From Candidatus Saccharimonadota bacterium (GTDB lineage: Bacteria > Patescibacteriota > Gracilibacteria > BD1-5 > UBA2023): a stretch of DNA of 32,000 nucleotides. The stretch is from NCBI GenBank assembly GCA_042852035.1, contig BAAFHK010000001.1, positions 510,001-542,000 of the forward strand. The letters run 5' to 3'. Numbering within the stretch: the first letter of the stretch is position 1; every line of letters begins with the position of its first letter. Position numbers and translations under genes: made by a program. The notes below the pieces were generated by a model. It was not told the DNA's origin, did no database searches, and saw only the letters and a program-made list of their open reading frames with translations. Of the stretch, positions 1 to 27,952 are shown one piece after another.

Positions 1-483
1 GGATGACTTCGATACTTTCTCTACGAGTACGAACAATATCTTCTCGAATCTTCGAAGAATTCTACTGCAAAAATCACATGGGAGAAGTTTACCAAAGAAC
101 AGGATATGATATCTATAGAGCATATTCTTCCTCAAACACCCGATAAATCTTGTTGGTCACATTTTGTATCACAGTATAGTCCTGAAGAAATGAATTACTT
201 TACGAATACTCTCTGAAATCTTCTCGCTCTCTCACAACCAAAAAACAGTAGTCTCCAAAATGATTGTTATGAAAATAAGCGAGTTGACGGAGAAAAGAAT
301 CGATGATATTTCAATGGATCATATTCGGAATGTAGAGTTGCTGAGACTTATAAGGAATGGACTCCTTATTCTATAAAAGAGCGAGGACTTGAACTCCTCG
401 GATTCATGGAAGAGAGATGGAATATTAATCTCGGGGATGATACTACAAAGATGAAGTTATTGAATCTTGAGTTTTTAGATTAA
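1..483 (+). CDS. C-terminal part of a DUF1524/GmrSD-type His-Me finger nuclease domain protein (5' end outside window)
   Basis: Frame 1 is open from nt 1 to TAA 481-483 if TGA 214-216 and 304-306 are read as Gly. Translation contains ISIEHILPQTP ... NTL(G)NLLALSQPKNSSLQND, the remembered DUF1524 motif pair (EHI.P..... LGNL.L....N). The first TGA sits on the G of LGNL. Confidence 0.7.
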
Positions 484-1096: not shown

Positions 1097-1495
1097 ATGG
1101 TATTTCTTTATAAAAAACTCATCAGTATTAGTATACTTCTTGCTGTATTTCTTTTTGGAAATATGGCTATTGTGCATGCTGTATCGGAGCTGTCTCATAC
1201 AAAAACAATCTCCCATACTCATGATGGCATCACAGAGTCCCATACGGTATCTACTACATCAGAAGATAAAGAACCTCCCCATTGTACACAGACGAAGATA
1301 GATACAAACATTATTCAACAAGTCAGAGATAACGCTGATATACCAGATATAGGAAAAACAGTGGTTTACTTGTATATCGGATGAGATATAAAAACGGATT
1401 CGATCACTCAGGATACCTATTTTCAGTACTATCCTTGAAGTGAAAATCATTTTTTCTGACATTTGCTTGTAGGAGAGACTATATTAGTGCTTTAG
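1097..1495 (+). CDS. Membrane-anchored His-rich hypothetical protein
   Basis: ATG 1097 to TAG 1493-1495 with three in-frame TGA (132 aa). N-terminal hydrophobic anchor LISISILLAVFLFGNMAIVHA, then SHTKTISHTHDGITESHTV...PPHC. No family recognised. Confidence 0.5.
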
Positions 1496-1531: not shown

Positions 1532-1562
1532 GGATTTTTTGTATTTTCCTAAATCAATTTTT

Positions 1563-3509
1563 ATGACAACTAAAAGTAATATTTTTTATCTTGCTATAAC
1601 AGGAATCTTTTCATCTATTTTAGCAGGATATATTCTCGTAGGAGCACATGGTGGACATGGGGACGAAGAAGCAGAAAATCTCGGATGAGATTCTTCTGTC
1701 ACACTCTCGACATGAGCTACTTTTACCACACTACAAGTAGCAGATATGAGTAACCTCTCAATACCCACCTATCCATGAACAGTACTATCAGATAACTATG
1801 GGTCGATATTTCCAGAACGCCAGTGAATCATAGGGGAACTTCTCGTAAGTCTCGGAGATACCGTGAAAAAATGACAACGAGTTGCTACCATCAATGCTCC
1901 TACTAATACTCCAGAAATGGTGAGTATGGTAGCATGACAACGAGCTGAAATTGCTATAGCTCAATGAGAGCTTCAGAGTGCGAAAGAAAAACTCATCTAC
2001 ATTAATGATGTTGTTGCGAGTCCAAATAGTTCTTTTCGACAAGCGTATGATGTTCAGAGAAAAGCTCTAGATATTCAGTATGAAGTACAGAAAAAACAAC
2101 TTGATGCAAAAATCGCAAGCCTCAGGGCAAATCTCGAAGCAAGATGAGTAGTCATAGAGAGCAGTAGACAAGCGAGTAGTGCTACCATAGCAGAAAATAC
2201 TCAAAAACAAGAAACTGCTAAAAAATATCTTATCGGAAAAGCAAATGAGGCAATCGCTGAGCTTCTTACCATTTTCTATAACTGAGATCGGAATAATCTT
2301 GGTATTAATACAACTTCATATGTATTTTATTGGTGATATAACTCAAACTGGTGATCACTTGGTGTAAATGATCGACAGAAGATATTGGATATACCTGAAA
2401 GGTTTCATAAAAATATGCAAACCATAATGCCTATGTATCCTCTTTCAACGGAAATATCGACTATAGATCTCAGTAGAACCCTCCGTTCACTCGAATCACT
2501 GATCAATGATGCAAATTCTATTTATGCAATTATTTGACCCGCATCGACTACAAATTATACCGAAAATAAACAAGAACTTTTATCGCTCCTTTCTGGAGAT
2601 AACGGCATTCTTATACTTCAATCCCGACTGATTGAGATAGAAAATGGAACACTCAGTGCTAACGCCACAGCATCATGAACATTATCTCAAGCAAATGCTG
2701 ATCTTATCGGACTCAAACAAGAAATGGCACTTCTTGAATCAGAACGTGATCTTCTAGAAGCAAATAAGAAAAAAGATTATGCAACACTCAGTGGTGAACA
2801 ATCTCTTTCGAGTGTAGATCTCGAAAAATTAAAAATCGAAGCACGCTCAGAGCAAATCGGCTCAGAAAATCGTGTGAGAGCTCTCCAGAATGCCCTTGGA
2901 GCAATACAGAGTACTATGAAAGTAAGTTATGCTGTCGCTCCTTTTGATGGTGTCATTTCTCGAAAAAATGTCAGTATCGGACAAACAGTAGATGTGACGA
3001 CCCCAATTTTTGATATTGCAGGAAAAAGTGAATCTCTTGATCTTTTTGTACGATTTGAAGTTCCTGTTGCTGAATACGCAACCATAAAACAATGACAGTC
3101 TATCCAAGTTAGTCTTCCTTGAATTGAGGCAGAGAGTACTCAGGCTGAAGTTACTCGATTTTCATCATCCGTGAATCAAGATACTCAGACAATTTCAGTA
3201 GAGGCTTCTATCGATACTTCCCATCTTCCTGTCGGAACACAAGTTCGTATAGTAAAGTCTGGACTTACAGGAACTGGATACATAGAAATTCCGAAGACAA
3301 GTATTCTCGAAGAATGAGAAGAATCATATGTCTATAAAGTTCTTCCGAATAATACTTTGAAAAAATGGAAAATCACTTATGAGAATATCGGATGAAAATA
3401 CATCATTACCGAATGACTCAAGGCGGATACTCGTATAGTTACAGATGCTCAAGATGAACGATGGAAAGATAATATGGATGTGGGTGCGATTTTATCCACT
3501 AACCCATAG
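1563..3509 (+). CDS. Efflux RND periplasmic adaptor (HlyD/CusB-type membrane fusion protein), unusually long
   Basis: ATG 1563 to TAG 3507-3509 in frame 0 with many TGA read as Gly (648 aa). N-terminal TM (IFYLAITGIFSSILAGYILVG) followed by HGGHGDEE. Lipoyl/beta-barrel-like segments (GDTVKKGQRVATINAP; VAPFDGVISRKNVSIGQTV). A very long coiled-coil-like middle. Its stop is 5 nt before the RND pump start. Confidence 0.75.
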
Positions 3510-3514
3510 TCAAT

Positions 3515-6500
3515 ATGCTCAATAGTCTTATAAAATTTGCTCTCAATAGAAGACCTCTCGTTCTTTTTCTCTACCTTATTATCAGTATTTTTGGGATCTA
3601 TACACTCTCAAAACTCCCTGTCGATGTACTCCCAGATCTTAATCGTCCTCGTGTCACAGTATTTGCGGAAGCAGAAGGTATGAGTGCTGAAGATGTAGAA
3701 AAGATTGTTACACTTCCTCTAGAACGAACCTTGCGCACTATTGCTTCAGTAGATGCTGTGAGATCCAGTTCGGCTGGATGACTCTCGGTCGTGAATGTAG
3801 AATTCGATTGGTGAAGTAGTGTAAATATCAATCGTCAAAGAGTATATGAAAAAATAGCATCAGTCACTCTCCCTGATGGAGTACATCTCACTGTAGCTCC
3901 AGAATCAGCACTGATGGGAGAAGTTCTTTGGATGGGATTGACTTCGACAGATCCAAAGATAAGTCAATCAGACCTTCGTCTCTATGCTGAAACTGAGCTG
4001 AGACAATCTCTTTCTACTGTATCTGGTATTTCGAATCTTTTGATTATGTGAGGTTCTGCCCCACAGTACACTATCTCTATTGATCCTGCAAAACTTTCCC
4101 AAAAACACCTTACTATCGAAGATTTACAAAAATCACTTTCAGACATTACCAATCCTGGATGAGCTGGTATAGCTATAGATAAAAAATCAGAATACCCGAT
4201 TAAACTTAACCCCATACAAAATACTGAAGAAAAGATTGGATCTATTGCTCTTCCGAATGGCAATATCCTCAAAGATATAGCAAGTATAGAAGTCGGGAAA
4301 AATAGCCAAAGACGATGAGATGCGCTCATCGATGGAAAAGAATGAGTCATAATCCGAGTTTCGAAAGTGCCAAATGCAAATACGGTAGATCTCACAAATA
4401 CACTTCTTGCTAAAATTACTGAGATTCAAAAGACTCTCCCCAAATGAATAGAGCTTAACGATGATATTTTTCGTCAAACATGGTTCATCGAGAAGTGATT
4501 GACAAATGTAGAAGAAGCCCTTAGGGATGCAGCGATTATCGTAGCGATTATCGTAGTACTCTTTCTTCTGAATGCTCGTACTGCATTCATTACAATGATC
4601 TCTCTTCCGATTACACTTCTTTTATCAGCAATAGTGTTCTATATTTTCTGAGTTGGGATCAATATTATGGTACTCGGAGGGCTTACTATTGCTATCGGAG
4701 AACTCGTGGATGATGCTATAGTGGATATGGAAAATATTTTTAGACGGTTACGACTGAATGCACTCCTTCCAAGCGAAGAACGTATTCATCATCTGAAAGT
4801 AATATTTGAAGCGTCGAAAGAAGTACGATGAAGTGTAGTTTACGCTACTATTCTTCAGCTTATAGTATTTATTCCATTTCTTCTTCTTCCATGAATCGAT
4901 GGGAAAATACTTGCCCCTATCGGTATGGCATATATTACTTCGATGATTATGTCACTCCTCGTAGCGGTGACTTTTGTTCCTGTCATATGTAGCTATCTCC
5001 TTCCTACATGGATCGAAAAACGTCATGGGAAAATATCTGAAGATACTTGGTTTACGGAAAAACTCAAACACTGGGCAAAATGACCAATTCTCTGGAGTCT
5101 CAAAAATCCACAGAAAGCCCTCCTGTTTGCTCTTTTATCCATACCACTTACTCTACTTGGATACGTGATGGCAAGTGAAGAATGACTTCCTGCATTTAAC
5201 GAATCAAGTTATACGATTTCCATCACCACAAAACCCTGAAGTTCACTGGAATACACACTCGATATTACAAAAAATTTCTCTCTGGAACTCAGAAAGATCT
5301 CATGAATCGAACGAGCTGGAGCGATTCTCTGACGTGCTGATGCTGATGCTCATGCTCAATGATCGAATAATGCAGAAATCGAAGTGGCACTCGCACCAGA
5401 TGTAACCAATGAAGAAAAAGCGAGAATCTATGATGAAATAAATGGCGTAATCGGGAAGTATAAACAAGTTGCCGTCATTGGTATAGGACAACCTATTACA
5501 CATAGAGTAGAAGAAATTATTTCAGGAATTCGTGCCCCACTCGTTATCAAGGTTTTCGGGGAAGATCTGGATACCTTAGAAACACTCGGAAAGCAGATCG
5601 TAGAAATCACCAATACTGTCGAAGGTACTCTCAATATTTCCCTAGAATCTCAAACAAAAATCCCAAGTATTACCGTCACGCCAAATACCCCATCTCTTGT
5701 CTCACAGAAAGTAAACTACAATGAAGTAAAGGAACTTCTTGATGTGGGAATCGGAGGACAAGAAGTCGCACGCGTGATAGAGTGACAAAATTCCTATCCT
5801 GTTGTTATGCGTTTTCCGATCTCATGGACAAGTACGCCAGAATCCATAAGAAGTATTCCTTTTTGGCTATCTGATGAACGAACATTTTTTATCGGAAATG
5901 TTGCGAATGTAGAACTTGGGAAATCGAGAAACATTATCAATCATGAAAACTCAGCGAGACGTATAGTTATATCATGATATACAAAAGATCGTTCCATAGT
6001 CGATGTAGTCGATGATATAAAGAAAGAAGTGGAAAAACTCGATATACCTTCAGGGTATAGAGTTTCGTATGAGGGACTATATTCTGCTCAAAAAGAATCC
6101 TCAAAACTTCTGATGTTTATCTCTATTGGTGTCCTTCTTGCTCTTTTTGGAATCCTTTATTGGCATTTTGGAAGTATTGTACTCGTGCTTCAGATATTTC
6201 TCGGTATTGTCACGGGGTGGTTCTGAGGAATTCTCTGAGTTTGGCTCACGGGAGGAGTTATATCTACCGCTCATCTTGTAGGATTTATCGCACTCATGGG
6301 TATCGTATCGAGAAATGGTATCATGCTCATTGATCATTATAAGCATCTCTGTCTCGAAGAATGACTTCCTTTTGATAAAAATACTATTCTCAAAGGATCT
6401 CTTGAACGTATCGTCCCTGTTTCTATGACAGCACTTTCTGCTATTCTTGGTCTTCTTCCTCTCGTTCTCTGAGCAGGTGATGCAGGGAAGGAAATGCTAT

Positions 6501-6640
6501 CACCGATAGCAACAGTGATATTTTGGTGATTGTTTGTTTCCACGCTTATTGAACTTGCTCTCAGACCATGAATTTTCTATAGATATTATCGTGAAGGTTT
6601 TCATCCGAAAGCATCAAAAAATACTTATATAGTCGAATAA
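3515..6640 (+). CDS. CusA/CzcA-family heavy-metal efflux RND transporter
   Basis: ATG 3515 to TAA 6638-6640, a single frame-2 reading with TGA = Gly (1041 aa). Typical N-terminus [18 protein letters not shown]...[17 protein letters not shown](G)SS at TGA 3812-3814. (G)LPAFNESS and [10 protein letters not shown](G)SNNAEIEV blocks. C-terminal TM bundle. Confidence 0.9.
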
Positions 6641-6724: not shown

Positions 6725-7396
6725 ATGAAAACTTCTATCATCATCGGACTTATCGTCCTCTCATCTCTCGCTCTCGCTAGTTGTAGTGATACCACTCAGA
6801 AGACTCCTATATCTACGAATCCTGCACCAACCTCTTCTGTTACATCGACTTCCACTCCAAAAACTACTTCCGCAACATCGACTAATACATCTATGGCAGG
6901 TATGGATCATTCAAAAATGGATATGGGGACTTCTACAGATAGCGGAAATATGACATCTATGGATCATATGTGAGCTTCTACAGAAGAGGAATTCATCGCT
7001 AATATGATCCCCCATCATCAAGAAGCTGTCGACACTGCGAGTATTATCGTAGCAAAAACTGAAAATGTAGAGCTCAAAAAAATTGCACAAAATATTGTTT
7101 CGGCTCAGAAAACAGAAATAAGTCTTCTGAATTCTTGGATGAAGACATGGTATCCAAATAGTACCCTCAAAATAAATTATATGCCTATGATGCGTGATCT
7201 CTCAAAACTTTCTGATCATGATCTTGATGATGCATTTATGGAAGATATGGTTAAGCATCATGAGTGAGCGGTGCATATGGCAGAAGAAGTTCTTGAAGTA
7301 TCTCAACGACCTGAAATTGTCCAGATGGCAAATGATATTATTCGTACACAAAATGCAGAAATCAAGAAATTTAAGGAACTTCTTGGAAATCATTAA
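6725..7396 (+). CDS. DUF305-family lipoprotein (copper-resistance associated)
   Basis: ATG 6725 to TAA 7394-7396 with TGA 6971-6973 and 7265-7267 as Gly (223 aa). Lipobox LALASC, S/T-rich linker with MDHSKMDMG/MTSMDHM. Two DUF305-like repeats: MIPHHQEAVDTA and MVKHHE(G)AVHMA. Confidence 0.8.
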
Positions 7397-7414
7397 TTTT
7401 TTATCCCTATTTTT

Positions 7415-8089
7415 ATGAATCAAAAAGATTGTTGTCATATCGAAGAGAAGGCATCACTTAAGCCCTTATACCTACTCCTTGTAGGTATTGGATGAGTGAG
7501 TATTGGTCTTACTCTTCTTTTCCCTATAAATACCTTCATGATGTACCTGATGGGTGTATGGTTTCTAGCTTTTGGATTACTAAAGCTTTACGATCTCCGT
7601 GGTTTTGTAGAAGCATTCTGCCAGTATGATTTTATTGCAAGAAAATTAAAGTTATATGGATATATCCTTCCTTTTTTAGAAATAATCCTTGGTCTTATCT
7701 ACATACTCAATACGAGTATGCTCTATATGACAGCGGTAAATGTAGTAGCTCTTATTATTTCTCTACTTGGTATAGTCAGTGCCTATTCGGTTGTGAAATC
7801 AGGAAAACAGATCGCATGTGCATGTATGTGAACAAAGTGGAAACTTCCAATGACAAAAGTTACTGTATTGGAAAATCTTTTTATGGCTTTTATGGTTGTA
7901 TATATGTTTATATATCCTGAATCCATGATGAATATGACTGATATGAATACTGGGAGTCATGTTATGCAGGTAGATGAAAGCACCATTATGTCTTCTGAAA
8001 TGATGACACCCTCATCAAATAATGATGATGTTATGCGTGAACACTGTAAAATGATGCCAGAAATGGTGGGCTGTGAAAAATATAGATAA
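7415..8089 (+). CDS. MauE/DoxX-like integral membrane protein with Cys/Met-rich C-terminal tail
   Basis: ATG 7415 to TAA 8087-8089 (224 aa). N-terminal CCH, four hydrophobic segments. ACACM(G)TKWKLPMT resembles the CxCxG motif of MauE-type proteins. The tail ends ...DVMREHCKMMPEMVGCEKYR. Confidence 0.65.
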
Positions 8090-8108
8090 TTCTTAACCTT
8101 ATCCGTAT

Positions 8109-9854
8109 ATGAAAAAACTCCTTTTAATATTCCTTATTCCTGTATTGCTTTGAAGTTGTAGTATTGTTTGACTAAACAATCCTCAAAATAAGGAACAAAC
8201 ATCCGTACAGGTTATAACATCAACTGAAAATCCACAGGACGCTATGATGCGTGAACACTGTAAAATGATGCCGAGTATGGCAGGTTGTGAAAAATACAAA
8301 AATGATGCCAATACAAATAATTCAACTAAGAAAAGTTTGAATGAACTTATCTTGGTAGATGACGAAACAACCACTGATGTAAAACCAACAGAAGTAGTCA
8401 ATCTGAAAGATGGAGATACTTATGACCTCACTATACAAAAAGTTCGTAAGGTTATAAATGGTAAGACCTTTATTATGCTTTCGTATAATGGAAGTATCCC
8501 TTGACCAACTTTCCGTGCTCCAAAAGGTGCAACAATAAAGTTTAAGGTTCGTAATACTGTAAAGGAACTTGCCACGACTATTCATCCACACGGTGTACGG
8601 CTCAACTATCTCTATGATGGTGTACCAAAAGACCAAGGTGGAGCACAAGACCCAATTAAAGTAGGCGATGTGTACGAACAAATTATTACTTTTCCAGATA
8701 CTGGAGTGATGTGGTATCATCCACACACACGAGATGACTTCGAACAAGAACTTGGTGAATATGGAACATTTCAGATATACGACCCGAATGAAAAACCAAC
8801 AGTAGATAGTCAAAATGTCATTACACTTGATGATGTTCTTATAGAAAATGGAGTTATTCCACCATTTGAACAAGATACCGTAAATTATACCCTGATGGGT
8901 CGCTATGGAAATACAATGTTTGTAAATGGAAATACAGACTTCTCACTCACAATCAAACAAGGGGAAATAAAGAGGCTCTATCTCATCAATACTGCCAATG
9001 CAAGACCATTTGATTTTTCCATTCCTTGAGTGAAGATGAAATTGATCGGTGGTGATATGGGGTATTATGAAAATGAGAAGTTTGTAGACCACCTTATTAT
9101 ATCTCCCGCTGAACGCTACATAGTCGATATTATGGGTGAAAAATCTGGTAATTTTCCAGTGCAAAGTATCGGTGGTGGAAAAACTATTTCACTTGGAACA
9201 TTGACGGTAATGCCAAACACAACTCCCTCAATCTATAAAAAAGATTTCGAAACACTCAAAACTCATGATATTCTCTGAAATCTTAAAAATACACTTTCAT
9301 CCTACCAATCAAAAACACCAGATAAAAGTCTAAAAATCACCATGACCATGGAAGGAATGGATGGTATGGAATGAATGGGAGATATGGGTGGCATGCATCA
9401 TAATATGTGATGAATGGGTATGGGTGGTATGAGTATGGGAGACGAAAGTCCTGATGGTATAGAATGGGAAGATACAATGGCAATGATGAACTCAAATAGT
9501 ACCAATAAGACAACAAAATGGATACTCCGAGATGAACAAACAGGAAAAGAAGGTATGGATATAGATTGGAGTTTCAAAAAGTGAAGTCTTGTGAAAATAC
9601 GCCTTACGAATGATAAAGATGCTATGCACCCAATGCAACATCCATTCCATATGCACGGACAACGGTTTTTGATACTCAATCAAAATGGAACAGTAAATAC
9701 AAACTTTGTATGGAAAGATACAGTTCTCATACCAAAAGACCAATATGTAGATATTCTTGTAGATATGAATAATCCTTGAAACTGGATGGCACACTGTCAT
9801 ATCGTAGAGCACCTCTTCTCTGGTATGATGTTTGGATATAAAGTTATAGAATAA
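8109..9854 (+). CDS. Multicopper oxidase lipoprotein (CopA/CueO-like) with Met/Gly-rich loop
   Basis: ATG 8109 to TAA 9852-9854 in frame 0 (581 aa). Lipobox LL(G)SCS with TGA 8151-8153. Copper ligand motifs HPHGV, WYHPH, HPFHMHG, HCHIVEHLFSGMM. Met-rich insert MTMEGMDGME(G)MGDMGGMHHNM(GG)MGMGGMSMG. Confidence 0.9.
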
Positions 9855-9912: not shown

Positions 9913-10486
9913 CCGCTCTATACTGATAAAAATTGCTTTTCCATACCCTTCTTCTATAATCTTTTCTCAACCAACACCACAATATAATACCACAGATGAT
10001 TTCAAGACTTCTTTCTTATCTTCTCGTTATTCATGTATTCCTTTTTGGAAGTATTTTTGGTTGTATAGAGGTATTACATACCTATCTTTGAAACAATGCA
10101 ACACCTCCCGTCGATCATTGCTGTACAGATAATCATAATGATAAGATACAATCTTGAACCACTCTTCAATATACACAAGAAGAATCGTATAAATTCATAC
10201 CATCTCTTTTCATAAAAACAGTCTTTGATTGGGATTATTCGGAAAATAGGGAGGTTATAGAAAAAAAGGTTGTAGCCCATATTGATAAACAAAGTCTCTT
10301 TTTTATAGAGACAGTGAGATTGCTACTCTAGGAGTAAGTATATTGATTTTTATATATTCATTTTGGGATTTTTATCATCCCTGTTTTTCAAGATACAATC
10401 TTCTTTAATAGGGAAAATATGAATGAATACCCTGATGATAGACTATAAAATATAACTAACCCTTATTCTTAATACTCATAAAAATT

Positions 10487-11095
10487 ATGAAAAAAATACT
10501 CTTTCTTTCTGTATTGATAAATATAACTATCCTTACCATCTTTGGATGAGCATACTATGGATGATATATTCCTCAATCGAAAGAAGCAAAAATAAAAGAC
10601 TTCTACGATACTGAAAATTATGTTCATGTCAGTCCTCATAGTATCCGAAAGGATATTATGCAATGAAAACAGAAGAAAATCTTGGTAGATCTCCGAAGTA
10701 ACGAAGAATACCAAACTTCACATATTGTAGGAGCAATAAATATTCCTGCATATAAGAACCCTGATGAGTCAGCATATGATGAAGTCAATCGTATTGTTGG
10801 AGAGTTTCAAAAACTTCCAAAAGACAAAGAAATTGTTGTCTATTGCTATAGCATTCCTTGTATGACAGGAAGAAAAATAGGAAAAATGCTCACAGAAAAT
10901 GGTATCTATGTGAAACATCTTGGTATCTGATGGAACGAATGGCGATATGACTGGGAAAGTTGGAATCATGAACTTGAATGGAAAAATACCAAAGTAGAGG
11001 AGTATATTTCATCTTGAAATGAGCCATGAACCTTTAGTGGATCAAATACTAGTATCTTTACTCCATGTAGTGCCAATGAAAATAGTGGGTGTTAA
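10487..11095 (+). CDS. Membrane-anchored rhodanese-domain protein
   Basis: ATG 10487 to TAA 11093-11095 with TGA = Gly (202 aa). N-terminal TM. Rhodanese-like LVDLRSNEEYQTSHIVGAINIP...EIVVYCYSIPCMTGRKIG...HLGI(G)WNEW. Cys-containing C-terminal tail. Confidence 0.75.
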
Positions 11096-11138
11096 ATCCA
11101 CGAGAAACCAATTATTATATTTTTTACTATAACTTTTT

Positions 11139-12041
11139 ATGCGACATCCAAATCTGGAAACCGAAGAAGCAACTTCTCAATATCCAAAATCGAACCATCC
11201 AAAAACACTGATTATATCACTTCTTATTGTCTCAATACTCGCAAGTGTTGGGTCATCATATTTCTTTTCAAAACAAGTTTCAAAAGAAGTAATAGAAAGC
11301 TATCTTGCTCTTGAATACAAAAAATCAGGTGGAAAAGAAAATTATGAACTTATTTCTGAAGCACAACGCCTTCAGCTTGAACAACAGATACCACAGATCC
11401 GTGAGTTTTTGAAAAATGGTGCATCTGCTAATCAGCAGGCTGGAGGACAAGAAGCTCCACCAAAAAAACTCTCCAAAGAAGAGCTTGCTTCTATTAAGAA
11501 AGATGCGTACATCGAAGGAAATAAAGAAGCAAAAATCACTCTCATCGAATATAGTGACCTTGAGTGTCCATTCTGTATCCGTCAATTCAAAGAAGGAACT
11601 ATAAAAAAAATTCATGAAAAATATGGAGATACTGTAAATTCTATCTTTAAGAATTTCCGTGGAGTACCACATGAAAATGCTGAGATCGAAGCAGTGGCTA
11701 CACTCTGTGCTGGACAGGTTGGAGGAACTGAAAAATATGCAAGCTATTACCAAGCCATTCTTGGGCGATCGAATGGTGGAAATGGAACTGGATTTAGTAA
11801 AGATGCCCTTGTGCCACTTGCCAAGGAATTTGGACTTGATATGAAAAAATTTCAATCATGTTTCGATGCGAAATCTACCCTTGCTCGATTTGATGCGGAA
11901 ACAACGGAAGGAAAGAAACTCGGCGTATCTGGTACTCCTGGAACAGTGATTATTAATAATGAAACTGGAGAATATGAACTTGTAGCTGGAGCATATCCAG
12001 TATCTGAATTTGAACGAGTTATTACTAAACTCCTGAAATAA
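11139..12041 (+). CDS. DsbA-family thiol:disulfide oxidoreductase, membrane anchored
   Basis: Intact 300-aa ORF under either genetic code. TM anchor, LIEYSDLECPFCIRQF (CPFC active site), C-terminal GVSGTPGTVIIN (cis-Pro loop). Confidence 0.85.
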   Translation: MRHPNLETEEATSQYPKSNHPKTLIISLLIVSILASVGSSYFFSKQVSKEVIESYLALEYKKSGGKENYELISEAQRLQLEQQIPQIREFLKNGASANQQAGGQEAPPKKLSKEELASIKKDAYIEGNKEAKITLIEYSDLECPFCIRQFKEGTIKKIHEKYGDTVNSIFKNFRGVPHENAEIEAVATLCAGQVGGTEKYASYYQAILGRSNGGNGTGFSKDALVPLAKEFGLDMKKFQSCFDAKSTLARFDAETTEGKKLGVSGTPGTVIINNETGEYELVAGAYPVSEFERVITKLLK

Positions 12042-12067
12042 CAGATACAAAACCCAATTGATGTATA

Positions 12068-12100
12068 CCTCATAATTCTATGATAGATAGAATTATGAGG
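12068..12100 (+). terminator. Long perfect hairpin after the first DsbA-like gene
   Basis: CCTCATAATTCTAT-gatag-ATAGAATTATGAGG, a 14-bp perfect stem, followed by ATCATCTTTT. Confidence 0.65.
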
Positions 12101-12134
12101 ATCATCTTTTAATATTTTAATCACCCACTTTTTT

Positions 12135-12806
12135 ATGAAAAAACTTCTTTTTATTATACCCGTACTTTTGCTTTTAGCATCTTGTACCAATAGTACTCCA
12201 TCAAAATCGTCTTCTTCTACAGATAATACACAAGTATCGTCTGTGGGTAATAGTTCTACATCTTCTGTTCCAAAAGAAAATAGAACTGTTCCAACGCCAT
12301 CATATGGCTCAGGAAATCATACTCTTGAGATATTTGCTGATTTTCAATGTCCTGCATGTCAGAATTTCTCCAAAACACTTGAGCCAATCTTCAAGAATTA
12401 TGCCGATAAGTGACAACTTATTATAAAATACCGCCAATTCCCACTCGATATGCACAAGAACGCCTTTCGTGATGCTATGATAGCACTGTGTGGAGCAGAA
12501 CAAGGAAAGTATATGCAAGCCAAAACCGCTCTCTATGCTTTAGAAACAATGAAATCATGAGGAAAAGTGTCAGATACTGAGCGTATCGATACTCTCACAA
12601 AAGCGTGACTCGATAAAGAGAAAATAAGTAGTTGTCTCACCTCAGAAGCATTTAAGGGGCAAGTAGAATCCGATCTCGCATATGGTGAATGACTTCGTGT
12701 AGATGGTACTCCATCGCTATTTCTTGATGGAAAAAAGATAGATATGTCAGTATTTAAAGATAAAGATTGATTTACATCATTTTTAGATACACTTCTGACA
12801 AAATAA
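12135..12806 (+). CDS. DsbA-family lipoprotein (CPAC active site)
   Basis: ATG 12135 to TAA 12804-12806 with five TGA as Gly (223 aa). Lipobox LLASC, S/T-rich linker, EIFADFQCPACQNF, ...RVDGTPSLFLDGKK. Confidence 0.85.
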
Positions 12807-12824: not shown

Positions 12825-13178
12825 ATGTTGTACCTCATCTTCAAATACTGTATTACTGCGTGAGTGATTGTAGCTGTATCTGAACTGGCAAAAGCATCAG
12901 ATAAAGTCGGAGCACTTATTGTATCACTTCCTCTTATTACCATACTTACCCTTATCTGGATACATATAGATGGATGAGGTGTAGCAAAAGAGGCAAATCA
13001 TGCATACTATACCTTTTGGTATGTGCTTCCGACACTTCCTATGTTTCTTGTTTTTCCGACACTATTAGAGCGATTTGGTTTCTGGATAGCACTCCTTCTT
13101 GCTTGTTTGATGACTATTGCTATTTTCTTTCCTTATACCTTCTTCTTGAAGCACTTCTGAATAAATCTTCTTCCATAA
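12825..13178 (+). CDS. Small integral membrane protein (possibly DUF3147-like)
   Basis: ATG 12825 to TAA 13176-13178 with TGA = Gly (117 aa). About four hydrophobic segments. The family assignment is a weak recollection only. Confidence 0.5.
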
Positions 13179-13192
13179 CCTTGTATATACTC

Positions 13193-14116
13193 ATGTCTCA
13201 TTCCCACAAACATCACGACCACAGCAGTCATAGTAACCATAGTCATTCTCACGGAGTATCAGATATTTCCACGGCATTTTTTATTGCCATAACGATCAAT
13301 ATTATTTTTGTTGCCATTGAAGTCTTTTTTGGTATTCGAGTGCATTCCCTTGCTCTTCTTTCTGATGCAGGACACAATGGAATGGATGTACTTAATCTAA
13401 TCTTCTCTGGAATTGCTCTGTGGCTTTCTAAAAAAAGAAACACTATCACTTATACCTATGGATACAAGCGAGCCAGTATATTTTCCGCTTTTATCAATTC
13501 CGTGCTTCTTGTAGTCACTGCTTTATATCTGATATTTGAGGCAATAAATAGAATGTTCACACCTGTTGAAACGGTTGGAACTACTATGATGATAGTCGCA
13601 AGTATGGGTATATTGGTGAATGGTATTTCTGGGTGGTTGTTGATGCGATGAGGAAGTGAAGACATCAATATAAAATCTGCGTATCTTCATTTACTCGGTG
13701 ATGCTCTGGTGTCTCTCGGGGTAGTTATCGGAGGTGCGATTATCTATTTTACAGGATATACCGTTGTTGATCCGATTATCTCTATCATTGTTTCAATGGT
13801 GATGATTATGAGTGTTATCAGTCTTTTGAAGCGGAGTATCCGAATGAATTTCGATGGTGTGCCAATGAATATAGATATTGAAGAAATAACAGAAGAATTA
13901 CGTGAAATAGATGGAATTACAGATGTTCACCATATTCATATCTGGTCACTTTCTACTACAGAAAATGCTCTTACGGCACATATAGTTCTCAAACAATGAG
14001 TAAATGAAAAAGAAATCAAGGACACTATCCGACATCATCTTGAAGATGAAAATATCCACCATACCACGCTTGAAACAGAATATGAAAAATGTAGCAACGA
14101 AAATTGCGATTGTTAA
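13193..14116 (+). CDS. czcD: Cation diffusion facilitator (CzcD/ZitB-type Zn/Co/Cd exporter)
   Basis: ATG 13193 to TAA 14114-14116 (307 aa). His-rich N-terminus MSHSHKHHDHSSHSNHSHSHG. CDF motifs LLSDAGHNGMDV, YGYKRA, AYLHLLGDALVSLGV. C-terminal domain VHHIHIWSLS and a Cys-rich end CSNENCDC. Confidence 0.9.
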
Positions 14117-16732: not shown

Positions 16733-17131
16733 ATGGATATTGAATCACTTCTCAAGTCTCATGGAAAAAGCATCACAAAAGAGAGAATAGAACTATACGA
16801 ATGAATCCAAAACTTACACCTCTTCCAAGCAAGTGATCTCACAGAGAAATTTCCACACATAGGACGTGCCAGCATCTTCCGTGTTCTCAATCTCTTTGTA
16901 GATATTGGAATTCTCAGAAAATTGATCCTCGACGATAGATGAGACTTTTATGAGCTTGAAGAGCAGTCACACCATGAACATTTTGAATGCAAGAGTTGTC
17001 ATACAGTCTTTCACTTTGATGCTCGATCTATCTGCAAAATGCTTGAATATCTCGCAAAAAAACAGTGATTTCTTCTTAAAAATCATCAAATCCTCCTCTC
17101 TTGAGTCTGTCCAAATTGTAACCAACATTAA
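16733..17131 (+). CDS. Fur-family metalloregulator (Zur-like)
   Basis: ATG 16733 to TAA 17129-17131 with four TGA as Gly (132 aa). wHTH ...GRASIFRVLNLFVDIGIL, metal-site HHEHFEC, structural Zn pairs CKSC and CPNC. Zur is inferred only from the adjacent COG0523 gene. Confidence 0.8.
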
Positions 17132-17133
17132 TC

Positions 17134-18336
17134 ATGCAAAAACTCATTCCCGTCACCGTACTTTCCTGATTCCTCTGAAGCGGAAAAACCACTCTCCTCA
17201 AACATATCCTCGAAAATCGAGAATGACTCAAAGTGGCTCTCATCGTCAATGATATGGCAGAGATTAATGTCGATGCCAATCTTATCAAAGATGGAATTGA
17301 ACTCTCGCAAACAGAAGAAAAACTGGTAGAAATGTCGAATGGTTGCGTATGTTGCACCCTTCGTGAAGACCTCCTCATCGAGGTTAAGCGCCTTGCAGAA
17401 GCAAATAAATATGATGCTATTATTGTGGAGTCAACTTGAGTTGGAGAACCTGTTCCTATTGCTCAGACTTTTTCTTATGTTGATGAAGAAAGTGGTATTG
17501 ACCTCTCAAAACTTGTCAGACTTGATACTATGGTAACAGTTGTGGATGCAAAGGAGTTTTTGAAGAATTTTTCTACTGCCGAAGCACTTAAAGATAGAGC
17601 ATGGGAAGCAACTCCGGAAGATGATAGAACTATTGTAGACCTCCTTGTAGAACAAGTTGAGTTCTGTGATGTACTCATCGTCAATAAGATATCTGGAATA
17701 TTAGAAGAAGAAAAAACTACTCTCAGAGCCATACTCAAGTGACTTCAGCCAACAGCAGAATATATAGAAACTGACTGGGGTAAGGTAGATATAGATCGCG
17801 TGATCGATACTGGATTATTCTCTATGGAGAAGGCAGAAAATAGCACTCTCTGGATGCGAGAACTCCAGTCATGATGACATAAAAATCATACACCAGAAAC
17901 AGAAGAATATGGAATTTCTTCATTTATCTACCGTCGAAATAAGCCATTTCATCCTGAAAGATTTCTCTCTCTTGCTAATAGGGAATGGGCTGGTGTTATC
18001 CGCTCAAAATGACTCTTCTGGCTCGCAAGCCGTAATAATCTCGCAGGAAGCTGGGGGCAGGCAGGAGGATCTGTACGAGTCGACCCTGCATGAAGCTGGC
18101 TCTCTGCGCTCCCGAAGGAACAACTCGCCCTCTATCCAGAATATCAGGCTGAACTCCTTGATTTTAAGGATTTCCCTTACCACGATAGAAGACAAGAACT
18201 CGTGATTATAACAATTCGATGAAACCAAAAAGAGATAGAAAACATGCTCGATGCGGCCCTTCTTACGGATGAAGAGATGCTCGCATGACCTGAGACCTGG
18301 AAGACATACCATGATGGATTTCCAAAGTGGAATTAA
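17134..18336 (+). CDS. COG0523 (CobW/YjiA/ZigA-type) G3E GTPase, putative zinc metallochaperone
   Basis: ATG 17134 (2 nt after the fur stop) to TAA 18334-18336 (400 aa). Walker A S(G)FL(G)SGKTTLL with TGA at 17167-17169 and 17176-17178. GCVCC metal motif, [17 protein letters not shown], CobW C-terminal domain. Confidence 0.9.
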
Positions 18337-25715: not shown

Positions 25716-26816
25716 CTAACGCTCTTCTTGTTCTCGTATTTCATTCAAATATTCTCGAAGAACGGTAGGGTTTTTAATGTGTTCCATGAGAGTTTTTCAT
25801 GAGATGAGTTTCTCTTTATGGAGATTTATGAGTGCTGTTTGCATCGGAATCTGTCACTCTTGCGATCCTGTTTCCATAACTCAATACAGATGAGAAATAT
25901 TACCTTCCATGATAAGATTTCTTGATGCTTCGCCATTAATAAAAACTTCTCGAGCAACAATATTTCCAGAACCATCCCTTTTGGGAAGTATAATCTGTCC
26001 TATAACTGAAACAAGAACGAGTGCAAGCTGTATGCGTATCTGAGATTGCATCTGGGCAGGGAAGGCATAGATAAGTCGATCAAAAGCCTGGACTACATCA
26101 TTCGTATGAAGTGTAGAAATAACAAGATGTCCTGTTTCTGCAAGAGTAAGCACTGCAGAAATAGTTTCTTGATCTCGCATTTCTCAGACAATAATAATAT
26201 CTGGATCCTCACGCATAGCATCTCGAATTGCTTGATCAAATGTCTCCACATGCTTCCCAACTTGTTTTTGATGGATAAGTGATTTTTGGTTTTTGAGAAT
26301 ATACTCAATCGGATCCTCAACCGTAATAATATGTTTATGGAAATTTTTATTGAGAAAATCTACCATTGCCATAACACTGGTTGTTTTTCCAGATCCAGTT
26401 CATCCAGTAACAAGAATGAGTCACCGATCAGACTTTAAGAGCCTTAAGATATTGGGAGTAAGTCAGACAGATTCTGCTGTTGGGGTATTTTTCTTAATCG
26501 TACGAAGAGCGATAGCAAATCCATCATTATCTTTGGAGATATTTCCTCGAAAACGAGTTCCTTCAAGCTCATAGATAAAATTAATCCCTCGTGTTGCGGT
26601 ATCAATACGCTCTCTTGTTACTTGAGAATTCATATATGCTGCAAGATCATAGAGGTCGTTTATCTCAATAATTCAGAAATTTTCTACTGGATCAACGTCC
26701 CGACTTGTCATACGAATAAAAGGATATTGCCCACTCGTAAGGTGAATATCCGTTATATTTTCCCTGATCGACTCTCGCATGAGTTGCAAGAATTTTTGTT
26801 CAAGTTCAACGTTCAT
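25716..26816 (-). CDS. pilT: Type IV pilus retraction ATPase PilT
   Basis: Minus strand, ATG 26814-26816 to TAG 25716-25718 (366 aa). ITDIHL, Walker A LVTG(G)TGSGKTT, TVEDPIEY, Walker B/Asp box DIIIV(G)EMRDQET (TGA 26184-26186), His box TGHLVISTLHTND. Confidence 0.9.
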
Positions 26817-26916
26817 ATCTCATATCCTAGCATAATTCGAATGAAAAACAAAAAATAGGATTATTCTTTGCAAGTATTCGATTGACTCTCTAAGGAAAAA
26901 ATGAGAAAAACTATTC

Positions 26917-27816
26917 TTACGTATGCAATATTCCCATTTTTCCGTTTTGGAAATCCTGCCATGCTTGGACGATCTCATCTTCACTCGTCATAACAAATGG
27001 TCAGTAGTTTACAACGCTTTGTCAGAGCGGCTTTCCTCACATAACGAGAATTTTTGCAATAGAGTGAGTTTGTAGAGAAATCTTGCTTCATTCGAGAGAA
27101 AAATACGCCATATCGCCATTTTTAAGTTCTTTTCCTGCAATTTCAGCATCCCCCTCGACCATAAGAATCATAACATTTTGAGAAGGAGAAAACTCAAGCT
27201 CCACCGATCAAGATTTCTCAAATCGTATATCATAGAGCTCAATAGGAGAAAAAGTATTTGCGCCTCAAGTTTTTTCTATACTTGCGCCTCAAACATCTTT
27301 CATATTCAACTGTCCAGCAATAACTCTGACCTTCCCAGAAGAAAATAAAACTTCCGGAATAATATCACGGGTAAGGGCTTGGTATCTTGGTGCGGTCATT
27401 TTATGTTCCTTTGGCAAATCAACCCATAATTGAACAGCATGTTGAGTGCCGCCATTTCGAGAGAAATTTTCGGTCATGAATTCATTGTGAAGGAGTCCAC
27501 TTCCTGCGGTCATCCATTGCACTTCATCAGCTCATATAATTCAGCCATTTCCTGCAGTATCCTGGTGTTCGATTTCTCAAGAGTACACAATAGTCACCGT
27601 CTCAAATCCACGATGCGGATGAAATCCTACTCCTGGTCGATATCCATCTTTCTGTGGAGGAATATGCCATGGGGCATTATAATCCAACATCAAAAATGGG
27701 CTTGTTTCAGGATTCATATCGCGTCCATATCCAGGAATGTATTGTGAAACTCGAAAGCCATCACCTACCATATGAGCATTTCGGGGATGCTCAAGTCTCG
27801 TAATTTTTTTTTGCAT
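26917..27816 (-). CDS. Pirin-family (cupin) protein
   Basis: Minus strand, TAA 26917-26919. HMVGDGFRV, GFHPHRGFETVTIVYS(G)EIEHQD..., VQWMTAGSGLLHNE, C-terminal cupin domain. Start set at ATG 27814-27816 because a TTGACA...TATAAT promoter spans the alternative ATG at 27835-27837. Confidence 0.85.
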
Positions 27817-27952
27817 TTTATTATAAATAGTTATCATGAAAACATGTCAATAGACTCACTCTCTCCTTCATTAAAGTTGGCTCATAACAGCCCAGCACCC
27901 CTAGAAACACAAGAAATTTCTATAATTGTAAATGATATATTAGAATTTTGAG

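What the first reader, a model, noticed from the sequence alone, without database searches (positions are those of the whole stretch)
8033..8297. Duplicated 17-aa Cys/Met module MREHCKMMPxMxGCEKY on two neighbouring proteins
The C-terminal tail of the MauE-like membrane protein (8033-8083) and the mature N-terminus of the multicopper oxidase lipoprotein (8247-8297) carry the same motif: MREHCKMMPEMVGCEKY versus MREHCKMMPSMAGCEKY.

The first 26 nucleotides are identical and 43 of 51 match overall. This implies recent duplication or gene conversion.

His, 2 Cys and 4 Met in 17 residues looks like a portable Cu(I) site. Its presence on both partners suggests metal hand-off between the membrane protein and the oxidase. 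I do not recognise this motif as a described domain.
Basis: seen in the sequence. Interest (0 to 1): 0.65.

Follow-up and report, generated by a model that had tools for sequence, protein, structure and literature searches.

The report
Portable Cys/Met copper module in CPR
Two neighbouring copper-resistance proteins of a candidate-phyla (Gracilibacteria-like) bacterium share a small, previously undescribed His/Cys/Met module that recurs, shuffled among copper oxidases, CopM-like proteins, MauE-like membrane proteins and tiny stand-alone anchors, almost only in ultra-small bacteria and archaea, and most likely binds and passes on copper outside the cell.

Summary
In detail: 8033-8083 and 8247-8297 encode MREHCKMMPEMVGCEKY and MREHCKMMPSMAGCEKY (43/51 nt; genetic code 25). 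It is not a recent duplication. Codon identity fits codon bias (8/11 vs 6.1 expected, P=0.18), and each copy has its own orthologue elsewhere (MauE copy 48/51 nt in a locus only 77.6% identical overall).

The motif is a conserved mini-domain with core H-C-x-x-M-P-x-M-x-G-C-E. It has no Pfam, NCBIfam, PDB or literature match. It was found in 47 loci of 185,579 species genomes (chance ~0.3), all Patescibacteria or DPANN/Methanosarcinales archaea, and in only 64 (62 genuine) of 1.84 billion protein clusters.

It sits on multicopper oxidases (N-terminus or Met-rich loop), DUF305/CopM proteins, MauE-like tails (always 15 residues from the end), 66-90-aa stand-alone anchored proteins, and Cys-cluster/TM proteins. 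Five loci carry it on two or three adjacent genes. MauE and the oxidase are fused in L033 and, through a single module, in L053.

Best reading: an extracytoplasmic, tethered Cu(I)-binding hand-off module. This is inferred and has no biochemical support. It is a new variant of a known kind; interest is moderate to high.

The parts
8033..8083 (+). Module copy A: MREHCKMMPEMVGCEKY, residues 207-223 of the MauE-like protein, followed only by Arg and the stop codon. Predicted to lie outside the cell.
   Evidence: sequence. (5 TM helices, N-in/C-out by the positive-inside rule). (tail module 15 residues from the C-terminus in all close full-length relatives).
8247..8297 (+). Module copy B: MREHCKMMPSMAGCEKY, residues 47-63 of the MCO lipoprotein, 30 residues after the lipidated Cys17.
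   Evidence: 22 of the 119 closest MCO homologues have a module at this position.
7415..8089 (+). MauE-family 5-TM membrane protein (224 aa). Cytoplasmic N-terminal DCCH (7427-7438), conserved cytoplasmic-loop CAC-MG (7817-7831), and an acidic Met-rich external tail from 7916 ending in module A.
   Evidence: Pfam PF07291 E=2.8e-12. Topology. Family alignment. Relatives.
8109..9854 (+). Multicopper oxidase lipoprotein (581 aa). Lipobox 8148-8159. Copper-ligand motifs HPHG 8583-8594, WYHPH 8712-8726, HPFHMHG 9639-9659, HCHIVEH 9792-9812.
   Evidence: Pfam Cu-oxidase_3, Cu-oxidase and Cu-oxidase_2. NCBIfam CueO 155 bits, below the 525-bit cutoff. Ligand residues invariant or nearly invariant in alignment A6. 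Coordinates.
9342..9440 (+). Met/Gly/His-rich insert of the MCO (residues 412-444), just before GIEWED (9456-9473). In Paceibacteria, Saccharibacteria and Kaiserbacteria MCOs the module sits at this position, in one or two copies. In this window the insert lacks it.
   Evidence: module ~158 residues from the C-terminus, followed by GIEWED. (coordinates). (low-confidence loop in the AF2 model of orthologue P0078).
6725..7396 (+). DUF305/CopM-family lipoprotein with a Met/His-rich N-terminal region. It has no module here, but DUF305 is the commonest module carrier elsewhere.
   Evidence: Pfam PF03713 E=5.4e-45. 19 of 62 module proteins are DUF305. CopM binds Cu(I) (PMC4335983).
782..1054 (+). 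CsoR-family Cu(I)-sensing repressor at the head of the same-strand gene array. It is the likely regulator (inferred).
   Evidence: Pfam PF02583 E=5.6e-17. CsoR homologues lie next to module genes in 11 of the 47 motif-scan loci and in L048.
1539..6640 (+). HlyD/CusB-like membrane-fusion protein (1539-3509) and CusA-like RND pump (3515-6640), upstream in the same array.
   Evidence: HlyD_3, HlyD_D23. (CusA/CusB homologues syntenic in L004, L008, L044).
10487..12806 (+). Membrane-anchored rhodanese (10487-11095) and two DsbA-like thioredoxins (11139-12041 with CPFC; 12135-12806 with CPAC). These are candidate managers of the module's Cys redox state (inferred).
   Evidence: Pfam. Rhodanese and/or DsbA lie next to module-bearing MCOs in L001, L006, L014-L016, L018, L024, L026, L029, L032, L039.

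Best explanation
The 17-residue repeat is one instance of a conserved, self-contained mini-domain of about 20-35 residues with core [AM]-M-[RK]-E-H-C-x-x-M-P-x-M-x-G-C-E-[KP]-[YF]. It is predicted to fold as helix, loop, short helix, preceded in the longer form by a beta-hairpin.

It most likely forms an extracytoplasmic Cu(I) site from soft ligands: the two Cys plus His and/or the two invariant Met. Alternatively the site is His plus Met on a loop closed by a Cys-Cys disulfide.

It works as a tethered copper 'hand'. Flexible, acidic, Met-rich linkers hold it at the outer face of the membrane: 30 residues from the lipid anchor of the oxidase, and about 40 residues beyond the last TM helix of the MauE-like protein. 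There it captures Cu(I) and passes it by ligand exchange between like modules and on to the acceptor sites of its carriers. Those acceptors are the substrate/Met-rich region near the T1 copper of the oxidase, where Cu(I) is oxidised to Cu(II), and the CopM/DUF305 body, where copper is sequestered.

What is shown: the motif, its conservation, its taxonomic restriction, its carriers and positions, its co-occurrence on adjacent genes, the MauE-MCO fusions, and the absence of any known-family match. What is inferred: copper binding, the ligand set, topology, direction of transfer, and regulation by CsoR.
For: (a) Real and rare. The strict DNA pattern hits 47 loci in 185,579 species genomes (my estimate of chance is ~0.3), all Patescibacteria or DPANN/Methanosarcinales. 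An exhaustive HMM search of 1.84e9 cluster representatives gives 64 hits, 62 of them genuine.

(b) Ligand-type conservation. In the profile-search set, C, M, P, M, C are invariant in alignment A4 (62 sequences), H is 63/64, G 62/64 and the following E 55/64, while the intervening positions vary. In divergent copies the spacing and the P/G change, but H, 2 Cys and 2 Met are kept (L050: EHCNLPGMEQMEVC, EHCGIMEMEGC).

(c) Carriers are copper proteins. Pfam over 62 members gives DUF305/CopM 19, MCO 6, MauE 2, and nothing for the module itself. CopM binds Cu(I) with KD ~3e-16 M in the periplasm and extracellularly (PMC4335983).

(d) Position. In many CPR MCOs the module is inserted, once or twice, in the Met-rich insert before GIEWED. 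The Met-rich segment of CueO binds extra Cu (PMC8456105, PMC12510620).

(e) Autonomy. Stand-alone 66-90-aa TM- or lipoprotein-anchored proteins consist of the module only, with real TAA stops (P0003, P0004, P0010, P0016, P0018, P0022, P0024, P0039). One lies immediately upstream of an MCO (L050). AF2 gives pLDDT ~85 for the module, and the same helix-loop-helix appears on an MCO orthologue.

(f) Shared by partners. It is on two or three adjacent genes in the window, L052, L012, L028 and L050, and twice within one MCO in L001, L030, L034 and P0023.

(g) Physical linkage of the two carriers. L033 encodes a MauE-MCO fusion (Pfam 37-160 + 213-679). L053 encodes MauE-tail-module-MCO. These fusions also require the MauE C-terminus to be outside, agreeing with the positive-inside prediction.

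(h) Precedent. Matching Cu(I) domains on interacting partner pairs, and CupA's bis-thiolate plus Met-rich sites (PMC7558416).
Against: There is no biochemical evidence of any kind. Thiolate sites are less usual than Met/His sites in oxidising extracytoplasmic space, and two DsbA-like genes lie nearby, so the Cys pair could be a disulfide.

The module is dispensable for the enzyme. 97 of 119 close MCO homologues lack it, including P0077 at 78% identity.

MauE tails with the module occur with no MCO in the fetched locus (L003, L004, L008, L044), so a specific MauE-to-MCO hand-off is not the only use.

I had no model coordinates, so Cys-Cys/His/Met geometry and docking onto the oxidase were not checked. 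The equivalence of the CPR Met-rich insert with CueO's Met-rich segment is positional only: solved MCOs do not align across it. L053 could be a k-mer assembly join across the repeat.
Confidence: 0.6

Rival explanations
1. The module is a cofactor-insertion chaperone rather than a substrate or detoxification hand. It would deliver the four catalytic copper ions to the Sec-exported, unfolded apo-oxidase outside the cell. It would be built into the enzyme, tethered on a neighbour, or encoded as a small gene upstream, as CutF is for CutO in Rhodobacter.
For: The MCO has a Sec-type lipoprotein signal and no twin-arginine motif (sequence), so it must be metallated outside the cell. A stand-alone module gene sits immediately upstream of an MCO in L050. 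CutF is a small exported Cys-motif protein upstream of cutO and is essential for CutO activity (PMC8456105).
Against: The commonest carriers are DUF305/CopM proteins (19 of 62), which need no cofactor. Some are in loci where no MCO was found (L005, L012, L023, L028, L036, L037, L040). The module is inserted in the Met-rich substrate-side loop of many MCOs. 97 of 119 close MCO homologues lack it.
Confidence: 0.14
2. The two Cys are a redox-active pair, not metal ligands. The MauE-like protein would be a DsbD/CcdA- or DsbB-like transmembrane thiol-disulfide conduit running from the N-terminal CC, through the CxC, to the tail C-x8-C. The matching module on MCO or DUF305 would be its substrate or partner, for instance to keep exported Cys reduced or to reduce Cu(II).
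For: MauE is a 'redox-associated' family. The CxC is universal in the family, and the N-terminal CC accompanies the tail module in nearly all close full-length relatives. L031 has a glutaredoxin-like domain on the cytoplasmic N-terminus (PF00462, E=3.5e-4, just below cutoff). DsbA-like and rhodanese genes are conserved neighbours.
Against: A pure redox pair does not explain the invariant His, two Met and Pro, the Met-rich flanks, or insertion in MCO Met-rich loops. HMA (CopZ-like)+MauE fusions point to metal rather than electron traffic. Stand-alone and DUF305 copies occur without MauE nearby.
Confidence: 0.12
3. The module binds another thiophilic or borderline metal (Zn(II), Hg(II), Ag(I)/Au(I)) through a Cys2-His(-Glu) site, and the copper context is incidental.
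For: H-C...C-E could make a Cys2HisGlu zinc-type site. There is a weak MerT/CopZ-type NCBIfam similarity for the MauE-like carrier (E=0.086). The window also holds CDF, Fur-family and CobW genes.
Against: The invariant Met residues are typical of Cu(I)/Ag(I), not Zn. The carriers are MCO and CopM, and the neighbouring regulator is CsoR. No MerA or MerP is present in any locus examined.
Confidence: 0.06
4. The repeat is a local, recent duplication or gene-conversion tract with no function of its own.
For: 43/51 nt identity with a 26-nt identical run. L053 shows the repeats could recombine.
Against: Codon sharing is within the codon-bias expectation (P=0.18). Orthologous copies exist in loci at 77.6% overall identity (48/51 nt in the module). 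There are dozens of independent carriers across phyla and two domains of life.
Confidence: 0.02

Closest known systems
CupA / CopA N-terminal domain pair of Streptococcus pneumoniae
   Same: The same Cu(I)-binding unit sits on a membrane-anchored chaperone and on its partner. The ligand set mixes a bis-thiolate site with a Met-rich site. Like-with-like domains mediate transfer (PMC7558416).
   Different: CupA is a ~100-residue cupredoxin-like beta-barrel acting on the cytoplasmic side and feeding a P-type ATPase. The module here is ~20-35 residues, helix-loop-helix, extracytoplasmic, and unrelated in sequence, and its partners are MCO, CopM and MauE-like proteins.
Methionine-rich segment (MRS) of CueO/CutO-type multicopper oxidases
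   Same: Both are an accessory copper-binding insert of cuprous oxidases that is variable between species. In many CPR MCOs the module is embedded in the corresponding Met-rich insert (PMC8456105; PMC12510620).
   Different: MRSs are low-complexity Met/His/Asp stretches without Cys and without a fixed motif. The module is a discrete conserved motif with two invariant Cys, and it also exists outside MCOs and as a stand-alone protein.
CutF (Rhodobacter capsulatus cutFOG)
   Same: Both are small exported proteins with a Cys motif, encoded directly upstream of an MCO and tied to its function (PMC8456105). The stand-alone module gene in L050 has the same gene order.
   Different: CutF is 118 aa, with CXXXC plus a C-terminal Pro-rich motif, and is proteobacterial. 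There is no H-C-x2-M-P-x-M-x-G-C, no fusion to other carriers is reported there, and there is no sequence similarity.
HMA / CopZ-Atx1 domain (PF00403, MxCxxC)
   Same: It is a portable Cu(I) module found both free and fused to transporters. HMA+MauE fusions exist among relatives of the window's membrane protein.
   Different: HMA is a ~70-residue ferredoxin-like fold, cytoplasmic, with CxxC spacing. Pfam does not detect it in any module carrier's module region.
CopM / DUF305
   Same: It is an extracytoplasmic Cu(I)-binding resistance protein (PMC4335983). It is the commonest carrier of the module, and a paralogue lies immediately upstream in the window.
   Different: DUF305 is a ~150-residue helical domain using His/Met. 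The module is an appendage at its N- or C-terminus, not part of the DUF305 profile.

Membership tests
Pfam-A / NCBIfam (any described domain covering the module) | Significant profile match over the 17-35-residue module | tested here: not met
   No family covers residues 166-224 of the MauE-like protein or 1-116 of the MCO. There are no hits for the isolated segments in NCBIfam even at E<=1. Stand-alone P0010 has 0 families, and none of 62 members has a module-level family.
Solved structures (PDB) | Sequence or fold match of the module | tested here: not met
   phmmer gave only a spurious designed-repeat hit. Foldseek of the AF2 model gave best E=3.6, TM 0.35.
MauE (PF07291), carrier of copy A | Profile match above gathering score; multi-TM protein with the conserved C-x-C-[LMV]-G-T...P-M-T loop | tested here: met
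   47.5 bits against a cutoff of 27. The CxC loop is conserved in all 12 aligned relatives. Whether it does what MauE does in methylamine dehydrogenase maturation was not tested, and no mau genes are present.
Three-domain multicopper oxidase, carrier of copy B | Cu-oxidase_3, Cu-oxidase and Cu-oxidase_2 domains plus the four His-rich copper-ligand motifs including HCH | tested here: met
   All three Pfam domains are present. HPHG, WYHPH, HPxHxHG and HCHxxxH are present and invariant or nearly invariant in 121 homologues. The AF2 model of orthologue P0078 has pLDDT 92.
CueO equivalog (NCBIfam NF008205) | Score above the curated equivalog cutoff; Tat signal | tested here: not met
   155 bits against a cutoff of 525. 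The signal peptide is lipoprotein/Sec-type without a twin-arginine motif (sequence). It works like a CueO-type cuprous oxidase (inferred) but is not a member of that equivalog.
HMA / CopZ domain | MxCxxC in a ~70-residue beta-alpha-beta-beta-alpha-beta fold (PF00403) | tested here: not met
   There is no PF00403 hit on either window protein. Cys spacing is C-x8-C. The predicted fold is helix-loop-helix.
CutF-like proteins | Small Sec-exported protein with a central CXXXC and a C-terminal PP motif (PMC8456105) | tested here: not met
   The module has C-x8-C and no PP motif. It resembles CutF only in gene order (L050) and small exported nature.
Twin CX9C (CHCH) proteins such as Cox17 | Two CX9C motifs on antiparallel helices forming two disulfides | tested here: not met
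   There is a single Cys pair with 8 intervening residues, the second Cys follows a Gly in a loop, and no second pair is present.
Cu(I)-binding site (functional class) | Measured Cu(I) affinity and defined ligands | not testable with these tools
   Only indirect evidence is available: invariant H, C, M, M, C and the copper context.

The most novel reading that the evidence does not exclude
The MauE-like protein is a new kind of ATP-independent transmembrane Cu(I) relay or exporter for CPR and DPANN cells. Copper would be bound on the cytoplasmic side by the N-terminal CC (or, in relatives, an HMA or glutaredoxin-like domain). It would pass the conserved CxC at the membrane and be received outside by the C-terminal module. 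The module would then hand it to the identical module on the oxidase, which in L033 and L053 is covalently fused, for oxidation, or to CopM. The module would be the universal connector of a modular extracytoplasmic copper-trafficking network specific to ultra-small, host-dependent microbes.
Probability: 0.2. Interest if true: 0.8.

Novelty: new variant of a known kind. Interest (0 to 1): 0.6.

Why it matters
Copper handling outside the cytoplasm is usually done with Met/His sites or with well-known folds (CusF, CopC, Sco, PCuAC). This is a compact Cys2/His/Met2 motif with no relatives in the domain databases. It is confined to the candidate phyla radiation and small archaea, and it has been shuffled between an oxidase (two different insertion points), CopM-like proteins, a MauE-like membrane protein, Cys-cluster proteins and tiny anchored stand-alone proteins.

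That makes it a clean, peptide-sized system for studying how a Cu(I) site is passed between partners.

It gives the first concrete functional handle on the MauE/DoxX-like membrane proteins that sit in CsoR-linked operons, through the fusions to MCO and HMA and the cytoplasmic Cys motifs.

It also supplies a sequence signature for annotating copper-resistance genes in genomes where most proteins are 'hypothetical' and where code-25 genes are fragmented by standard gene callers.

Tried and rejected
(1) A word-indexed homology search with a module profile failed once because the query was too short. On the second attempt it returned only 9 short fragments, largely because code-25 genes are split by table-11 gene calling. 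It was useful only for exposing the stand-alone proteins.

(2) P0015 and P0017 (5 and 41 'stretches' in the exhaustive search) looked like giant module arrays. They are degenerate eukaryote-like repeats with 'MREHC' words and no M-P-x-M-x-G-C, so I rejected them as spurious.

(3) PDB sequence and Foldseek searches gave nothing.

(4) Full-text searches for six motif strings and for CPR + MCO + copper found no description.

I used orthologue P0078 instead.

(6) Model coordinates are not exposed, so I could not measure Cys-Cys or ligand distances, or whether the N-terminal module docks near the T1 site.

(7) Aligning a loop-module MCO to solved MCOs did not bridge the insert, so equivalence with CueO's Met-rich segment remains positional.

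(8) I considered and dismissed a C-terminal sorting signal: there is no following TM helix, and the same motif is internal in MCO loops. I also dismissed c-type heme attachment: there is no CxxCH.

(9) Co-variation between tail and MCO copies within genomes was not attempted, because only 2-3 genome pairs are available.
Full report
OBSERVATION.

The window is read with genetic code 25. ORFs of at least 100 aa sum to 20,336 aa when TGA is a sense codon, against 5,293 aa under table 11. TGA also lies on near-invariant Gly positions of the oxidase ('SIPGP', 'NPGxWM') and of the MauE family ('CxCMGT').

Under that code, 7415-8089 encodes a 224-aa MauE-family membrane protein and 8109-9854 encodes a 581-aa three-domain multicopper oxidase (MCO) with a lipoprotein signal peptide.

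The stretches 8033-8083 and 8247-8297 encode MREHCKMMPEMVGCEKY and MREHCKMMPSMAGCEKY. They match at 43/51 nt, the first 26 nt are identical, and 15/17 residues are identical. There is no similarity in the flanks. A degenerate back-translation finds only these two sites in the window, with 0 in 100 shuffles.

NOT A RECENT DUPLICATION.

Of the 11 identical residues that have synonymous codons, 8 use the same codon. This genome's codon usage predicts 6.1 +/- 1.5 (P=0.18).

The MauE tail of L004 is a locus only 77.6% identical to the window over CusA-DUF305-MauE. Its module is 48/51 nt identical to the window's MauE copy. It includes the same 26-nt run and shares the MauE-type variant PEMVGC. The MCO copy is matched by L039 (P[SN]MAGC...KYKN), but L039 is a 95%-identical near relative and so adds less. 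The two copies are therefore old paralogues held by selection. High nucleotide identity is what a nearly invariant peptide gives in an AT-rich, codon-biased genome.

WHAT IT IS.

Scanning one genome for each of 185,579 species with the strict pattern H-C-x-M-M-P-x-M-x-G-C gave 47 loci. My estimate of chance is about 0.3. All are Patescibacteria/CPR (Gracilibacteria, Peribacteria, Saccharibacteria, Paceibacteria, Kaiserbacteria and relatives, Elulimicrobium), apart from a few Woesearchaeota, Nanoarchaeota and one Methanosarcinales MAG.

An exhaustive HMM search of 1.84 billion cluster representatives gave only 64 hits at E<=1e-3. Two of them are spurious repeats.

Those hits were not constrained by my DNA pattern. 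They define the core [AM]-M-[RK]-E-H-C-x-x-M-P-x-M-x-G-C-E-[KP]-[YF]. C, M, P, M and C are invariant in alignment A4. H is 63/64, G 62/64 and the following E 55/64. The first Met of the window's 'MM' is variable.

Divergent copies in L050 change spacing and lose P and G, but keep His, both Cys and two Met.

No Pfam, NCBIfam, PDB-sequence, Foldseek or full-text match exists for the module.

CARRIERS AND POSITIONS.

(i) MCO N-terminus, after the signal or anchor. This is seen in Gracilibacteria and archaea, with two tandem copies in P0023. 22 of the 119 closest homologues of the window's MCO have it and 97 do not. P0077, at 78% identity, lacks it, so it is an accessory.

(ii) The MCO Met-rich insert, ~158 residues from the C-terminus and directly before GIEWED. 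This is seen in Paceibacteria, Saccharibacteria and Kaiserbacteria, with two copies in L001 and L034. The window's MCO has only a plain Met/Gly/His insert there (9342-9440).

(iii) The MauE-like C-terminal tail, always exactly 15 residues from the end, in essentially all close full-length relatives.

(iv) DUF305/CopM proteins, at the N-terminus, internally or at the C-terminus. This is the commonest carrier (19 of 62).

(v) Stand-alone 66-90-aa proteins made of a TM or lipoprotein anchor plus the module. Real TAA stops were checked for P0003 and P0004, which come from table-11 organisms.

(vi) Proteins with an N-terminal metallothionein-like Cys cluster, one TM helix and then the module (P0020, P0047, P0065, P0066).

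The module is on two or three adjacent genes in the window, L052, L012, L028 and L050. The partner combinations differ between these loci.

STRUCTURE AND TOPOLOGY.

AF2 of stand-alone P0003 with 66 aligned instances predicts a TM helix, a linker, a beta-hairpin (TINL/IEMT), a helix carrying E-H-C, a loop M-P-x-M-x-G-C and a short helix. pLDDT is about 85 over the module.

The N-terminal module of MCO orthologue P0078 is predicted as the same helix-loop-short helix, with pLDDT 76-85 in a model of pLDDT 92.

The MauE-like protein has five hydrophobic segments. The K/R-rich N-terminus and loops 57-81 and 122-149 are predicted cytoplasmic. The acidic tail (10 D/E against 4 K/R) is predicted external. 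So both modules sit on flexible linkers at the outer face of the same membrane (inference).

LINK BETWEEN THE TWO CARRIERS.

L033 (Saccharibacteria, table 11) encodes one 679-aa protein with MauE (Pfam 37-160) fused in frame to an MCO (213-679). Because the MCO must be outside the cell, this independently requires the MauE C-terminus to be outside.

L053 (code 25, same contig seen in two samples) encodes MauE-tail-one module-complete MCO. Its two BLAST segments against the window (7319-8082 and 8247-9853) overlap exactly on the module. The 163 bp between the window's direct repeats is therefore missing. This is either a recombination product of the repeats or an assembly join, and read mapping is needed to decide.

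Relatives of the membrane protein also carry an HMA/CopZ-like domain (P0220, P0223) or a glutaredoxin-like domain (L031; just below Pfam's cutoff) at the cytoplasmic N-terminus. The N-terminal CC accompanies the tail module in nearly all close full-length relatives; exceptions are P0204 and L053.

CONTEXT.

The window's + strand array runs CsoR, a small His-rich protein, HlyD/CusB-like, CusA-like RND, DUF305/CopM, MauE-like, MCO, a small His/Cys protein, a TM-anchored rhodanese, two DsbA-like proteins, a small membrane protein, and a CDF. CsoR, DsbA-like and rhodanese genes recur beside module genes elsewhere.

MECHANISM (inferred).

The ligand-type conservation, the copper-specific carriers and the insertion into MCO Met-rich inserts point one way. 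CueO's Met-rich segment binds additional Cu (PMC8456105, PMC12510620) and CopM binds Cu(I) at ~3e-16 M (PMC4335983). Together these indicate an extracytoplasmic Cu(I) site. It would use Cys2 plus His/Met, or His/Met on a disulfide-closed loop.

Matching modules on neighbours, on fused proteins and as anchored stand-alone proteins suggest tethered capture and like-to-like hand-off. This is established for ferredoxin-ferredoxin and cupredoxin-cupredoxin chaperone/target pairs and for CupA's thiolate plus Met sites (PMC7558416).

Rivals are as follows. One is a CutF-like cofactor-insertion chaperone for the Sec-exported MCO (PMC8456105). Another is a redox-active Cys pair in a MauE-centred thiol relay. 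A third is another metal. The last is a functionless recent duplication, which the distribution refutes.

COMPARISON AND NOVELTY.

The module works like known portable Cu(I) modules but belongs to none of them. It has no HMA profile and no CxxC. It has no CXXXC plus PP motif as in CutF. It has no twin CX9C. It is not a plain Met-rich segment.

The carriers themselves are ordinary family members: MauE and a three-domain MCO. The MCO is not a CueO equivalog (155 against 525 bits).

I rate it a new variant of a known kind: an undescribed, lineage-restricted copper mini-domain with unusually free domain shuffling. The most novel reading not excluded is that the MauE-like protein is a new transmembrane Cu(I) relay that feeds the oxidase through this module.

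Noticed in passing
window, whole (e.g. TGA codons at MCO residues 15, 21, 132, 307, 390, 422, 434, 435, 492, 557): The window uses genetic code 25 (TGA = Gly), typical of Gracilibacteria/Absconditabacteria. Public gene calls for relatives are therefore fragmented or carry W in place of G (for example P0013, P0070), which hides features like this module from standard searches.
   Followed up: yes
window 1539-6640 (+): This is an HlyD/CusB-like membrane-fusion protein plus a CusA-like RND pump, with no outer-membrane factor gene seen in the array. That is odd for a lineage usually considered to lack an outer membrane. The arrangement is syntenic in L004, L008 and L044.
   Followed up: partly
window 1097-1495 and 9996-10331 (+); L048 5610-5954; L050 967-1308: These are small TM-anchored His/Cys-rich proteins with no Pfam or NCBIfam family. 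They recur next to module genes and MCOs; a g9996 homologue is also in L039. They may be further copper-handling components.
   Followed up: partly
window 10487-12806 (+); L001, L006, L018, L029, L032, L039: A membrane-anchored rhodanese and DsbA-like thioredoxins are recurrent neighbours of CPR multicopper oxidases. This recalls DoxX-rhodanese redox complexes (from memory, not checked).
   Followed up: partly
P0020, P0047, P0065, P0066: These proteins have an N-terminal metallothionein-like Cys cluster (CxCxDCKCxPCxC..., often ending in CCH/WCNW), one TM helix and then the external module, with DUF305 added in P0065. The architecture suggests metal sites on both faces of the membrane.
   Followed up: no
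L033 1068-3113; L053 ~99-2360; P0220, P0223; L031 3534-4292: MauE-like domains occur fused to an MCO, to HMA/CopZ-like domains and to a glutaredoxin-like domain. The MauE/DoxX-like proteins of CsoR operons may be metal or redox conduits rather than methylamine-dehydrogenase factors.
   Followed up: partly
window 12825-13178 (+); L052 10132-10491: This is a ~117-aa multi-TM protein with no Pfam hit. In L052 it lies between the tail-module ORF and the MCO, and in the window between DsbA-like and CDF genes. It is conserved, and its function is unknown.
   Followed up: no
window 16733-18336 (+): A Fur-family regulator is followed by a CobW/COG0523 GTPase, a zinc-homeostasis-type pair. Together with the CDF at ~13184-14116, this makes the region a general metal island.
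   Followed up: partly
L052 12314-20123: In a 230-kb Gracilibacteria contig, the tail-module ORF + MCO pair is flanked by a resolvase, HTH_7, DNA methylases and helicase/restriction-like genes. The copper cassette may be mobile.
   Followed up: no
window 106-483 (+), 25716-26996 (-), 26917-27837 (-): There is a GmrSD C-terminal endonuclease fragment at the window start, a PilT/T2SSE-type ATPase, and a pirin. None is related to the finding.
   Followed up: partly
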